DNA of 64,000 nucleotides, taken from the NCBI RefSeq assembly GCF_009914755.1, contig NC_060925.1. One strand, written 5' to 3'. Made by a program: the position numbers and the translations under genes. The notes under the pieces are model-generated. The model worked only from the letters and a program-made list of their open reading frames with translations, was not told the origin of the DNA and did not search any database. The stretch's first letter is position 1, and each line of letters opens with the position of its first letter. Shown here in pieces: positions 40,063 to 50,470 of this stretch. Source of the DNA: the human T2T-CHM13v2.0 reference genome, Homo sapiens.

Positions 40063-40820
40063 AAATGTACTTGTTTTAAAAAAACCCAAATGCTGACATT
40101 GTCCAGAAAAATTTAACAGGTTTATTTGCAATTATTGTAAAGTTGAACCACTGAAACTTGTTCACTGAAACATTTTAACTTGCATTAATGCTTTATGTCT
40201 CTGCATTCATATTAAAAATTCACACACAAACGAAAATGGAAAAACTGCCAATACCTGATTTCTGTCCCCTATTTTTCCACTCGCAATCATATACTAGGTA
40301 CCTTTTGACCCCATGGGAAAAAAATATCTAATGTTCAGAACTACCAATAACAGGAAGAAGAGAATTTTTTTTTTTTTGAGAATGAAATGATTCCCATCAT
40401 AGTGGATTCTTAAGCACGTTCTCCACGTATGCGGCGTGCTAGCTGCATGTCTTTTGGCATAATTGTTACACGTTTGGCATGGATAGCACACAGGTTGTTG
40501 TCTTCAAAAAGGCCAACCAGATAATCCTCACCTGCCTCCTGCAAAGTACCGACAGCTGAGCTCTGAAAGCGCAGATCTGTTTTAAAGTGCTAAGCGATTT
40601 CTCGCACCAGACCCTAGAAGGGAAGTTTGCGAATCAGAAGTTCAGTGGACTTCTGATAATGTCTAATATCACCGAGTGTCACAGTACCAGGCCTGTAACG
40701 ATGAGGTTTCTTCACCCCTCCAGTAGAGGGCGCACTTTTGCGAGCGGCTTTCGTAGCCAGTTGCTTCCTGGGTTCTTTACTGCTTTGTACGAGTCATGGT
40801 ACAGAGACCTCCTTACTTAC

Positions 40821-40897
40821 CCCCCTTCTCCTTCGGCTGGAGCTCGGTGAGTGAGAGGTGGCGCTGGCCTTGGAGAGTGACAGTGGAGCGGCGGCGG
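40821..40897 (-). other. CNR2: Candidate 77-nt internal 5'UTR exon of a distal CNR2 isoform, derived from the H3F3A retrocopy
   Basis: Acceptor TTTTTTTTAATTGTGTTCACAG| (AG at 40899-40898) and donor GGG|GTAAGT (40820-40815), both in CNR2 orientation; fits a recalled two-exon distal CB2A leader. Confidence 0.65.
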
Positions 40898-40924
40898 CTG
40901 TGAACACAATTAAAAAAAATTTTT

Positions 40925-43900
40925 GTTTTTAATTTATTTAATTTTTTTAGATAGTCTCACTCTGTCACCCAGGATGGAGTGCAGTGGTGCAATCTCGGCT
41001 CACTGCAACCTCCACCTCCTGGGTCCAAGCAGTTCTCCTGCCTCAGCCTCCCGAGTAGCTGGGATTACAGGTGCACGCCACCAGGCCTGGCTAATTTTTG
41101 TATTTTTAGTAGAGACCGGGTTTCACCATGTTGGCCAAGCTGGTCTTGAACTCCTGATCTCAAGTGATCCACCTACCTCGGCCTCCCAAAGTTCTGGGAT
41201 TACAGGCATGAGCTACCACGCCTGCCCTGTTTTTTGTTTTTGTTTTTTTTAAAAAGCAGGGTCTCACTCTGTTGCTCAGGCTGGAGAGCAGTGGCACAAT
41301 CTTAGCTCACTGAAACCTTTGCCTCCTGGTTTCAAGTGATTTTTTTTTCCTGCCTCAGCCTCCAGAGTGGCTGGAATTACAGGTGCGCACCACCACGCCC
41401 GGCTAATTTTTGTATTTTTAGTAGAGACGAGGTTTCACCATGTTGGCCAGGGTGGTCTCGAACTCCTGACCTCAAGTCATCCACCTGCCTTGGCCTCCTA
41501 GATTTCTGGGATTACAGGTGTGAGCCACCATGTCTGGCCTTAACTATAGTTAAGGGTTGTAATCAGGGAGGAAGAAGGGCAGAAGACGGTAAGAAAGTTC
41601 CTACTTGACTAGAACTCTTGTGACATTTCCCTGGCCTGACAGATAGCTAAAGCTGCCTCTTTCTCTCATGGCACTTGTTCTTCAGCAAATTCTCTTCATG
41701 AGCTCTCTCGGCTGCAATTCCTTCACAGTGGGCAATGCTTCTCCTTAGGCTGATTGCTCCCTCAGCTTCTGCCTCTTAGTACAATATCTTGCTGTAAGAC
41801 TGCCATTGCAGGGGCCACACTTGTGGGCTTTGAAAATAACTCTAGCCAGGCAGGTGGCTCACACCTGAAATCCCAGCACTTTGGGAGGCTGAGGCAGGCA
41901 GATCACTTGAGCCCAGGAGGCAGAGGTTGCAGTGAGCCGAGATCGCACCATTGCACTCCAGCCTGGGTAATAGGAGTGAAACCCTGTCTCACAAACAAAC
42001 AAACAAACAATCAATCAAAGAAACAAAACACATGAGGATCTATAAATACTCTAGTTTTTTTTTCTTATTTTTTTCTAATCGGCAATGAGAATATACGTGC
42101 AATTTTACTGGCCAATGATAGCATGGAACCAGAAGGGTGGCTACCTCCCATTTAGAGCATACTGTATTCCGAGCGCTTCCTAGCAATATGGACCCTGAAG
42201 ACTAGATCGGTGTAGCAGAGTGGCTAAGAGCAGGTTTTGGCATCAGGCTGACCCAGGTTCAAGTTCGAGGTATGTGACTTTGGGCAAATGACTTAGCCTA
42301 CCTCTTTGAATCTCAGTTTACTCATCCATTTAATGAGGCAGTACTACTAGTGACCTCAGTAGGTTGTGATGAGAATTAAATAAGAATGCGTATCAATTGT
42401 TTAGGACAGGCCGATTCAATGGCTCATGCCTGTAATCCCAGCACTTTGAGGGGCTGAGGCAGGTGGATCACTAGAGCCTAGGAGTTCAAGACCAGCCTGG
42501 GCAACATGACGAAACCCTGTCTCTACAGAAAATACAAAAATTAGCCGGGCACGGTGGCATACACCTGTTGTCCCAGCTACTCGGGAGGCTGAGGCAGGAG
42601 GATTGCTTGAGCCCAGGAGGTTAATGCTGCAGTGAGCCGTGATCTCACCACTGCACTCCAACCTGGGTGACAGAGTGAGATCCTATTTAAAAAAAAAAAA
42701 TTTTTTTTTTAAATTGCTTAGGACAGTGTACCTTGCTCATAGTAGAGTGCTCGATACTTATTGTTATTATTTAATGTGCAACACATTTGTAATATGCAAA
42801 GTATCATACCTTTGAATTGCATAAGTAACAGTTAAAACAAAACAAAATAAAGATATAACAGTCAAAGGCAAGGAGATGGTATAAATATTCAATCACGGTG
42901 AACTGGAATCAAGAGATCAGACTGAACTTGAGCAAGTTACTTCACCTCCTTTTGCCTTGGAAACTGTGGGCGAATGGTGACTCCTTTGTTGCCTGCTCTT
43001 CCCAAGAGTGGAAGTCATGCCACGGTGTCACCTAGCAGTTTAATCATGTGTTAAGACTATGTCAATCTGTTCTTTTTTTTTTTTTTCTGCTGTGGCAAAA
43101 TCCAGGCTCTCGGGCCATGGAAGCTTGACTCATAGTCTCTTTCCAAACCCAAGCCATCAGCCAGAGAACAAACACTGGCTTGCCTGACTCAGTGGAAATT
43201 CCAGACGTTTGTAGCTCATTAACTGCCAAATTGACAGCTATGGAGGCTGTGACGAATAAGTGGACCTCATTAGCTCCATGTTCCCCAGAAAAAGCTGTCC
43301 CACAGGCATACTTTGTACAAAGGCCATACGTAACACGTGATCTTTAAAAAAACCTTTTAAAATTCTTTTGACTATTTCCTGTCAAAAGAAATTCACCGCC
43401 AGGCGAGGTGGCTCATGCCTATAATCCCAACACTTTAGGAGGCCGAGGTGGGTGGGTCACCTGAGGTCAGGAGATCAAGACCAGCCCGACTAACATGGTG
43501 AAATCCTGTCTCTACTAAATACAAAAAATATGCTGAGCGTCATGGCACATGCCTGTAATCCCAGCTACTTGGGAGGCTGAGGCAGGAGAATCGCTTGAAC
43601 CCAGGAGGTAGAGGTTGCAGTGAGCCGAGATTGTGCCATTGCACTCCAGCCTGGGCAACAAGAGTGAAACTCCGTCTCAAAAAAACAAAGAAATTCACCA
43701 ACGTAAATTCACCAACTCCTCTTACAGATCCAATGTCAGGAAAGCAGCTATAAACAATAAGGACAGCGAACAGTATCCTCAAAGCCAGAAGCCTGGGACT
43801 GACTTTTAGCCTGATGGTGGGGGCATACACGGATACATAATTTCTGGAAAGTATTTGGTAATATGTATCAAAAGTCTTACCTGTATATTTACCTTGTGAC

Positions 43901-49900: not shown

Positions 49901-50130
49901 TCACGTGAGGTTAGGAGTTTGAGACCAGCCTGGCCAACATGATGAAATCCTGTCTCTACTAAAAATACAAAAATTAGGAGGGTGTGGTGGCAGGCGCCTG
50001 TAATCCCAACTACTCAGGAGGCTGAGGCAGGAGAATCGCTTGAGCCCAGGAGGCGGAGGTTGCAGTGAGCCGAGATTGTGCCACTGCACTCCAGCCTGGG
50101 CGACAGAAGGAGACTCCGTCTCAAAAATAA
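40925..50130. mobile_element. Dispersed Alus (~40925-41226, 41230-41540, 41845-42010, 42408-42700, 43397-43690, 44128-44434, nested 45160-45810, 47087-47360, 47624-47921, 49104-49388, 49841-50130) with MIR/L1M/MER5 remnants
   Basis: Alu consensus. Confidence 0.88.
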
Positions 50131-50344
50131 CGAATTACATGAGATTTATAAAAAGTTGGTAAATATAAATTCTGTAACGTAAACTTGGGTATATATGTGT
50201 ATACACGAACAAACTGTGAATGAGACTGATTTTGTACCGTTTGGCCCAGAATTATTCACGCTCATTGAAATTAGTGCTCTTTTAAAAGATTCACACTGGG
50301 TTGCTTATACATTTACTCCAAAGAAATTGCCATTTTCCCCTTAC

Positions 50345-50470
50345 CTGCATCTGGCTGGCATAATCAACTGAACAATATTCTCTTTCTTCCCCTTTTTCAC
50401 TTACAAGTGGGGCAGAAAGGGGAGGAGAGCAGTCCTCATTCTTTCAGCAAACTTACTGTGCACTTACAAC
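50345..50470 (-). other. CNR2: Candidate distal first exon of CNR2 (CB2A-type), divergent from the PNRC2 CpG island; 5' end approximate
   Basis: Consensus donor ATGCAG|GTAAGG (GT at 50344-50343) at the edge of the CpG island, ~45 kb upstream of the main first exon. Confidence 0.6.

What the first reader, a model, noticed from the sequence alone, without database searches (positions are those of the whole stretch)
40815..50470. Retrocopy-bridged CNR2 leader: divergent transcription from the PNRC2 CpG island spliced through an exon exapted from an H3F3A pseudogene
Seen: on the minus (CNR2) strand there is a consensus donor ATGCAG|GTAAGG at 50344, at the edge of the PNRC2 island. 9.4 kb downstream lies a 77-nt exon (40897-40821) that is the 5'UTR of the H3F3A retrocopy. 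Its acceptor is chimeric: the T8 tract comes from the insertion flank and TTCACAG from the retrocopy. Its donor GGG|GTAAGT lies 23 nt before the histone ATG, so the dead H3 ORF is excluded. Recalled, not verified: a testis/brain-enriched CNR2 isoform (CB2A) with two distal non-coding exons ~45 kb upstream has been reported. Inference: a lineage-restricted retrocopy lets a housekeeping promoter drive an otherwise immune-restricted GPCR. I do not recall the pseudogene origin of this exon being noted.
Basis: partly seen in the sequence, partly recalled or inferred. Interest (0 to 1): 0.85.

Follow-up and report, generated by a model that had tools for sequence, protein, structure and literature searches.

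The report
CNR2 testis leader uses histone-pseudogene exon

Summary
On the minus strand there is a strong donor ATGCAG|GTAAGG (last exon base 50345). There is also a 77-nt segment, 40897-40821, bounded by TTCACAG| and |GTAAGT, inside an H3-3A processed pseudogene (H3P1).

Two independent published primer pairs for the human CB2A isoform map uniquely to these two segments. They give the published product sizes (77 and 197 bp) only if 50345 is spliced to 40897. So these are the known CB2A exons 1a and 1b. They lie 45.6 kb upstream of the CB2B/RefSeq first exon, as the literature says.

What seems new:
- Exon 1b is the parent gene's own 77-nt exon carried in by retroposition. Its acceptor is an annotated H3-3A acceptor, and its donor is the 9-mer that H3-3A exon 1-exon 2 splicing regenerates.
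- Exon 1a sits on the shoulder of the PNRC2 CpG island, at most 774 bp from the PNRC2 start.
- The leader carries three upstream ATGs, against none in CB2B.

Not shown here: the exon 1b-to-coding-exon junction, promoter sharing with PNRC2, and presence in other primates. The primary paper (Liu 2009) was not readable. This is a known isoform with a new origin story, of moderate interest.

The parts
50345..50476 (-). CB2A exon 1a, minimum extent. The transcription start is unmapped and lies at or above 50476. Upstream ATGs are at 50439, 50361 and 50350.
   Evidence: Published forward primers map to 50476-50456 and 50365-50347. Upstream ATGs.
50339..50344 (-). Donor of exon 1a: CAG|GTAAGG.
   Evidence: 92nd percentile of 404 real donors. 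One of 6 sites with at least 8 of 9 consensus matches in 46,472 nt.
40898..50344 (-). Intron 1a-1b, 9,447 nt.
   Evidence: Implied by the amplicon sizes 77 and 197 bp.
40898..40924 (-). Acceptor region. It comprises the A5-T8-AA candidate target-site duplication (40924-40910) and the retrocopy-derived TTGTGTTCACAG (40909-40898).
   Evidence: The parent acceptor at chr1:225250647 is used by 4 of 5 RefSeq H3-3A transcripts. PWM score is 5.97 bits against 5.39 for the parent.
40821..40897 (-). CB2A exon 1b, 77 nt. It is homologous to the 77-nt H3-3A exon chr1:225250647-225250723, with 8 of 77 differences, mostly CpG decay.
   Evidence: Reverse primer sites at 40860-40842 and 40852-40833. Alignment. 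The 3' end at 40821 is inferred, not seen in an assay.
40815..40820 (-). Donor GGG|GTAAGT, at the former H3-3A exon 1/exon 2 junction. The 9-mer is identical to the parent's exon 1 donor.
   Evidence: 56th percentile.
39595..40911 (-). H3-3A processed pseudogene (H3P1; RefSeq marks only 40411-40778). It runs from about parent mRNA nt 6 to the poly(A) site. The reading frame is dead, and an antisense Alu sits at 39771-40062 in its 3'UTR.
   Evidence: 56 of 1008 aligned bases differ.
50400..51700 (.). PNRC2 CpG island. In 200-nt windows GC is 0.55-0.70 and CpG observed/expected is 0.68-1.14. The PNRC2 start is at 51250 (+).
   Evidence: Annotation.
4662..4778 (-). CB2B, which is RefSeq NM_001841.3 exon 1. 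It is the reference point for '45 kb upstream'.
   Evidence: Annotation. The published CB2B forward primer maps to 4665-4685.

Best explanation
The interval holds the two untranslated 5' exons of the published human CNR2 isoform CB2A.

Transcription starts on the minus strand, on the left shoulder of the PNRC2 CpG island. Exon 1a reaches at least 50476, which is at most 774 bp from the PNRC2 start. It ends at a strong donor at 50345.

After a 9.4-kb intron it joins exon 1b (40897-40821). Exon 1b is the 5'UTR exon of an H3-3A processed pseudogene that inserted in the sense orientation.

The pseudogene brought a ready-made exon:
- Its acceptor is the same site that H3-3A itself uses when transcribed from upstream starts. 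Here it is slightly improved by a T-run from the insertion site.
- Its donor is the GGG|GTAAGT that reappears in H3-3A mRNA, because exon 2 begins with GTAAGT.

From 40821 the transcript is reported to splice across about 76 kb to the single coding exon. I did not see this step. The dead histone frame is left out.

The resulting leader carries three upstream ATGs, while the CB2B leader has none. Because exon 1b is 77 nt long, the ATG at 50361 reads across the receptor start codon out of frame. I therefore infer that CB2A is a poorly translated message.

Shown: the 1a-1b junction, the retrocopy origin, the inherited splice sites and the geometry.
Inferred: the 1b-to-coding-exon junction position, promoter sharing, the translational effect, and an age of roughly 35-50 million years.
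For: - Primer pair 1 (PMC6753062, passages and section 18 read; the same pair appears in PMC10334520) maps to 50365-50347 and 40860-40842. The spliced product is 77 bp, as published, and the paper says products were sequenced. On unspliced DNA the primers lie 9,524 bp apart.
- Primer pair 2 (PMC4057719, passages read) gives 197 bp, as published.
- Each primer of pair 1 has one exact match in the T2T genome. Its reverse primer differs from the H3-3A parent at 3 of 19 bases.
- The geometry matches the discoverers' own summary.
- The retrocopy aligns with spliced H3-3A mRNA over 1008 bases.
- A 77-nt internal exon is annotated in 4 of 5 RefSeq H3-3A transcripts.
- The donor 9-mer is identical to the parent's.
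- Upstream-ATG analysis.
Against: - RefSeq RS_2025_08 has no CNR2 transcript with these exons.
- The primary paper (Liu 2009) could not be read.
- Every assay I could read covers only the 1a-1b junction, so the link to the coding exon rests on review statements.
- Acceptor 1b is weak, at the 13th percentile.
- A stronger donor-like site further down in the retrocopy (last exon base 40532, 94th percentile) could give a longer exon.
- Strong testis enrichment does not look like simple housekeeping drive.
- The target-site duplication is low-complexity: 38 of 1000 shuffles score as well.
Confidence: 0.8

Rival explanations
1. The 1a-1b spliced RNA is mainly a non-coding upstream antisense transcript of the PNRC2 promoter. 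It ends locally, for example at the retrocopy's own poly(A) signal. Only a trace continues 76 kb to the CNR2 coding exon, so 'CB2A' measured at the 1a-1b junction overstates receptor mRNA.
For: - All primer sets I could read amplify only 1a-1b.
- RefSeq does not annotate the exons under CNR2.
- The testis paper speaks of a paucity of canonical receptor transcripts in RNA-seq.
- The leader is loaded with upstream ATGs.
- The retrocopy keeps its ATTAAA signal.
Against: - The discoverers state that the 5' exons are spliced to the major coding exon.
- Donor 1b is the same 9-mer that works constitutively in H3-3A.
Confidence: 0.25
2. Exon 1a has its own germ-cell-specific promoter that merely lies next to the PNRC2 island. 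There is no shared bidirectional promoter.
For: - Reported expression is more than 100-fold higher in testis than in spleen or leukocytes, and in spermatocytes and spermatids. PNRC2 is, from my recall, broadly expressed.
- The known part of exon 1a (50345-50476) lies at the GC-poor edge, where GC is 0.38-0.55.
Against: - Exon 1a reaches at least 50476, inside the rising flank of the island and at most 774 bp from the PNRC2 start.
- CB2A was also amplified in a brain endothelial and a melanoma cell line.
Confidence: 0.4
3. The splice-like motifs are chance matches and no exon exists here.
For: - Acceptor 1b scores low: 196 of 3518 AG sites on this strand score as well.
- 35 donor-like sites with at least 7 of 9 matches occur in 46 kb.
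Against: Two independent published amplicon sizes fit only the spliced junction, and the products of the 77-bp pair were reported as sequenced.
Confidence: 0.02

Closest known systems
Human CB2A isoform of CNR2 (Liu et al. 2009, Genes Brain Behav 8:519; not readable here, known through reviews and primer tables)
   Same: Same object. The start exon is about 45 kb upstream of the CB2B promoter, the leader exons are untranslated, and expression is testis and brain enriched. The published primers map here.
   Different: No readable text mentions that exon 1b is an H3-3A retrocopy, that its splice sites come from the parent, or that exon 1a abuts the PNRC2 island. Liu 2009 itself was not seen.
Retrocopy exon acquisition by a host gene ('Type I' events; Baertsch et al. 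2008, PMC2584115, passages read)
   Same: A sense-oriented retrocopy contributes an untranslated exon to a pre-existing gene's transcript.
   Different: Both splice sites bounding the exon are inherited from the parent mRNA rather than created after insertion. That paper's main text mentions neither H3F3 nor CNR2.
Head-to-head (bidirectional) CpG-island promoters with a nearby 5' splice site that favours productive antisense elongation (U1/polyadenylation-signal model; recalled, not read here)
   Same: Opposite strands, starts under 1 kb apart if exon 1a has no further upstream exon, and a strong donor as the first strong site met.
   Different: The start site is not mapped, co-regulation is untested, and the tissue pattern differs from a housekeeping partner.
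Recursive-splice-type AG|GTAAGT sites (recalled)
   Same: H3-3A exon 2 begins GTAAGTAAGG directly after ...tggtag, so splicing regenerates a 5' splice site.
   Different: No evidence that recursive splicing occurs in H3-3A. Here the motif matters only because retroposition fixed it in DNA.

Membership tests
Published hCB2A 5' exons | Isoform-specific primers map here and give the published product sizes when spliced | tested here: met
   77 bp and 197 bp. Each primer of the 77-bp pair has one exact genome match.
Published hCB2A 5' exons | Start exon about 45 kb upstream of the CB2B promoter, and gene about twice the CB2B size | tested here: met
   50345 and 50476 against 4778 gives 45.6-45.7 kb. 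Span is 90.9 kb against 45.2 kb.
Published hCB2A 5' exons | Exon 1b spliced to the CNR2 coding exon | not testable with these tools
   Only a review statement. No reads were available and the primary paper is not held.
Processed pseudogene (retrocopy) of H3-3A | Intronless and colinear with the spliced parent mRNA, including the UTRs | tested here: met
   1008 aligned bases across all three exon junctions, 5.6% different.
Processed pseudogene (retrocopy) of H3-3A | Poly(A) remnant and target-site duplication | tested here: inconclusive
   Only A6 remains. The candidate duplication AAAAATTTTTT(TT)AA is low-complexity, and 38 of 1000 shuffles score as well.
Processed pseudogene (retrocopy) of H3-3A | Disabled reading frame | tested here: met
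   23-nt deletion after codon 6, plus stop codons.
Retrocopy exon acquisition (Type I) | Retrocopy-derived sequence is spliced as an exon into a host transcript in the same orientation | tested here: met
   The acceptor junction is confirmed by the amplicons. The donor side is inferred.
Bidirectional promoter | Head-to-head starts less than 1 kb apart | tested here: inconclusive
   Exon 1a reaches at least 50476 and the PNRC2 start is at 51250, so the gap is at most 774 bp if there is no further upstream exon. The start itself is unmapped.
Bidirectional promoter | Shared regulatory elements or co-expression | not testable with these tools
   No expression or CAGE data. The literature reports testis enrichment.

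The most novel reading that the evidence does not exclude
H3-3A mRNA is a portable exon cassette. It carries a usable acceptor 19 nt from its cap and a donor regenerated at its first exon junction, so any sense insertion into a transcribed region is a ready-made 77-nt exon.

In the primate CNR2 locus this cassette was captured between the PNRC2 island shoulder and the receptor exon. There it acts as a translational brake. Its 77 nt (not a multiple of three) turn a 9-codon upstream frame into a 125-codon frame that overlaps the CB2 start codon. This would help explain why CB2A RNA in testis and brain is so hard to match with receptor protein.
Probability: 0.25. Interest if true: 0.55.

Novelty: new member of a known kind. 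Interest (0 to 1): 0.4.

Why it matters
CB2 expression in brain and testis is long disputed, and CB2A is the isoform said to account for it. Three points affect how CB2A RNA measurements should be read:
- Its second exon is 90% identical (69 of 77 bases) to the leader of a very abundant histone mRNA.
- It is likely confined to primates.
- Its leader carries upstream ATGs that the immune isoform lacks.

This bears on probe and primer specificity against H3-3A, on whether rodent models are valid for this isoform, and on whether the RNA yields much receptor. It also explains why annotation hides the link: RefSeq marks only the coding-like part of H3P1 (40411-40778) and has no CB2A exons. More generally, it is a clean example of a retrocopy donating an exon whose two splice sites were both inherited from the parent transcript.

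Tried and rejected
- Reading the primary paper (Liu 2009) by PubMed id, PMC id and DOI: not held. Two guessed PMC ids for later reviews were also not held.
- Looking for a published primer or probe across the exon 1b-coding exon junction: none in the papers read. One search was a badly chosen search and returned unrelated papers.
- Asking whether exon 1a is part of a repeat. The forward primer had 32 near-matches (up to 2 mismatches) against 1 for the reversed control. About 36 are expected by chance for a 19-mer in 6.2 Gb, and the reversed control is CpG-rich. A 311-nt query found only itself. Rejected.
- Gapless repeat finding for the retrocopy's target-site duplication. It found the Alu duplication (family D4) but not the retrocopy's, because the T-runs differ in length. 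A gapped alignment was used instead.
- Leader folding showed nothing beyond composition: z = -0.6 for CB2A and -1.0 for CB2B.
- Primate or rodent orthologues could not be examined, because no such genomes are reachable here. The age rests on divergence and on recalled substitution rates.
- Supplements were closed. Supplementary Figs S4-S5 of PMC6753062 (sequenced products) and the additional files of PMC2584115 (event lists) may bear on the junction and on priority.
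Full report
**What is in the sequence**

Read on the minus strand, the window shows ...GATTATGCCAGCCAGATGCAG|GTAAGG, with the last exon base at 50345. 9,447 nt further on it shows AAAAA-T8-AATTGTGTTCACAG|CCGCCGCCGCTCC...GAGAAGGGGG|GTAAGTAAGG. This gives a 77-nt segment, 40897-40821, followed after 23 nt by ATGACTCGTACAAAGCA.

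**Strength against chance**

I built position-weight matrices from 404 annotated donors and 413 acceptors in twenty gene-dense chr1 stretches.

| Site | Percentile among real sites | Minus-strand sites in 4779-51250 scoring as high |
|---|---|---|
| Donor at 50345 | 92nd | 3 of 2308 GT, itself included |
| Donor at 40821 | 56th | 28 of 2308 GT |
| Acceptor at 40897 | 13th | 196 of 3518 AG |

By simple consensus counting, 6 sites in 46,472 nt match CAGGTAAGT at 8 or more of 9 positions, and 35 match at 7 or more. The first donor stands out, but the exon could not be proven from sequence alone.

**Direct evidence that the junction is real and is CB2A**

- Pair 1. The testis study PMC6753062 (abstract, passages and section 18 read) lists CB2A primers with a 77-bp product and states that products were purified and sequenced. 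The forward primer is window 50365-50347 on the minus strand, and the reverse primer is 40842-40860 on the plus strand. Each has one exact match in the whole T2T genome. Joining 50345 to 40897 in silico gives exactly 77 bp, while the unspliced distance is 9,524 bp. The same pair is used in PMC10334520.
- Pair 2. An independent pair in PMC4057719 (passages read) has a published product of 197 bp. It maps to 50476-50456 and 40852-40833, and gives 197 bp with the same junction.
- That paper's CB2B forward primer maps to 4665-4685, inside RefSeq NM_001841.3 exon 1 (4662-4778). So CB2B is the RefSeq form.
- Reviews by or about the discoverers say the CB2A start exon lies about 45 kb upstream of the CB2B promoter, that the CB2A gene is about twice the CB2B size, and that the 5' exons are untranslated and spliced to the coding exon. 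I measure 45.6-45.7 kb, and 90.9 against 45.2 kb.

These are therefore the known exons 1a and 1b. The primary paper, Liu 2009, was not held. Its exon table, and the donor side of exon 1b, were therefore not seen.

**Origin of exon 1b**

The region from about 40911 to 39595 on the minus strand aligns with spliced H3-3A mRNA across all three exon junctions. 56 of 1008 aligned bases differ, which is 5.6% (K2P 5.8%, non-CpG 4.2%). Other features:

- A 23-nt deletion after codon 6 and later stop codons kill the reading frame.
- An antisense Alu (39771-40062), with a 16-nt duplication differing at 1 base, sits in the 3'UTR.
- RefSeq's H3P1 feature covers only 40411-40778. It does not overlap exon 1b, which may be why the link is not visible in annotation.

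The key point is that the exon was not assembled by luck.

- In the parent gene, 4 of 5 RefSeq transcripts start further upstream and splice into chr1:225250647, 19 nt inside the main first exon. This makes a 77-nt internal exon, 225250647-225250723. The retrocopy's acceptor is that same site: CTTTCAATTGTGTTCGCAG| in the parent against T8AATTGTGTTCACAG| here.
- Parent exon 2 begins GTAAGTAAGG, so the spliced mRNA regenerates GGG|GTAAGT. This 9-mer is identical to the parent's genomic exon 1 donor.
- The T-run lies in a candidate target-site duplication, AAAAATTTTTT(TT)AA, found at 40924-40910 and 39594-39581. It raises the acceptor score only from 5.39 to 5.97 bits. The duplication is low-complexity, and 38 of 1000 shuffles score as well.

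The larger truth is inheritance of both splice sites from the parent.

A genome search with the 139-nt 5' end found 21 other H3-3A retrocopies.

- 6 of the 21 keep both the AG and the GTAAGT.
- In the other 15, either the alignment did not reach the acceptor or the donor is mutated.
- Only one of the 21 lies in the sense orientation inside an annotated protein-coding gene (CAAP1). It is 5'-truncated and has CTAAGT instead of GTAAGT.

**Promoter context**

GC content and CpG observed/expected place the PNRC2 island at about 50400-51700. The PNRC2 start is at 51250. Exon 1a reaches at least 50476, so its start is at most 774 bp from the PNRC2 start unless a further upstream exon exists.

That meets the positional definition of a head-to-head pair, but sharing is not shown. 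Reported CB2A expression is more than 100-fold higher in testis than in spleen or leukocytes, and lies in spermatocytes and spermatids. This fits a germ-cell-specific start or germ-cell-permissive elongation better than plain housekeeping drive. Against that, CB2A was also amplified in a brain endothelial and a melanoma line.

**Likely consequence**

The CB2A leader, with exon 1a counted from 50476, has upstream ATGs at 50439, 50361 and 50350. The CB2B leader has none.

- With exon 1b present, the ATG at 50361 (A at -3) opens a 125-codon frame that overlaps the CNR2 start codon out of frame.
- Without exon 1b it would close after 9 codons.

I infer that CB2A is translated poorly and that the retrocopy exon contributes to this. 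The inference is untested.

**Age**

Assume most of the 5.6% change fell on the pseudogene. Using recalled per-lineage divergences (about 3% since the Old World monkey split, and about 5.5-6% since the New World monkey split), the insertion is roughly 35-50 million years old. That makes it primate-specific. No primate or rodent genome could be queried here.

**Novelty**

Searches of the held library gave the following.

| Terms | Papers found |
|---|---|
| CB2A + PNRC2 | 0 |
| CNR2 + H3P1 | 0 |
| CB2A + H3F3A | 0 |
| CB2A + pseudogene + CNR2 | 2, both irrelevant |

The retrocopy survey PMC2584115 defines the class ('Type I exon acquisition'; by its Table 1, 34 of 726 expressed retrocopies). 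Its main text mentions neither H3F3 nor CNR2. Liu 2009, the subscription literature and all supplements were not searchable, so priority cannot be excluded.

**Verdict**

The structural interpretation is confirmed at the 1a-1b junction. The promoter-sharing and 'bridge' inferences are open. The object is a known isoform, and its retrocopy origin with inherited splice sites is a new member of a known kind.

Noticed in passing
window 40203-49536 (-), LOC124903877 / XR_007069969.1: This Gnomon lncRNA model totals 100 nt, with exons of 13, 3, 7 and 77 nt. The last exon lies in the H3P1 retrocopy 3'UTR. It looks like a single short read forced through micro-exons rather than a real transcript.
   Followed up: partly
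window 40524-40532 (-): An A-to-G change relative to H3-3A created CAG|GTGAGG inside the dead histone frame. It scores at the 94th percentile of real donors and is a possible alternative, longer exon 1b end.
   Followed up: partly
L001 (chr1:225252200-225252260), H3-3A exon 2 start: Exon 2 begins GTAAGTAAGG right after ...tggtag, which is an AG|GTAAGT recursive-splice-like motif. RefSeq also has a start 5 nt downstream.
   Followed up: no
L005-L027 (21 other H3-3A retrocopies in T2T): Six (H3P6, a copy in DACH1 antisense, H3P47, a copy in ZGRF1 antisense, H3C9P, H3P39) keep both the AG acceptor and the GTAAGT donor of the 77-nt cassette. H3P6 is annotated as a transcribed pseudogene.
   Followed up: partly
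window 40925-41535 (-): Two tandem sense Alus lie directly upstream of the retrocopy, the second apparently inserted in the A-tail of the first. That makes three L1-mediated insertions stacked at one A/T-rich site. Their order relative to the retrocopy is unresolved.
   Followed up: no
window 40837-41057: A RefSeq functional element labelled 'silencer, fragment' overlaps exon 1b and the Alu tail. 'Active region_385' (50287-50346) ends at the exon 1a donor.
   Followed up: no
window 51250-52556, PNRC2 5'UTR: A conserved 56-aa upstream ORF of PNRC2, supported by ribosome profiling, is described in PMC3847767. I did not examine it in the sequence.
   Followed up: no
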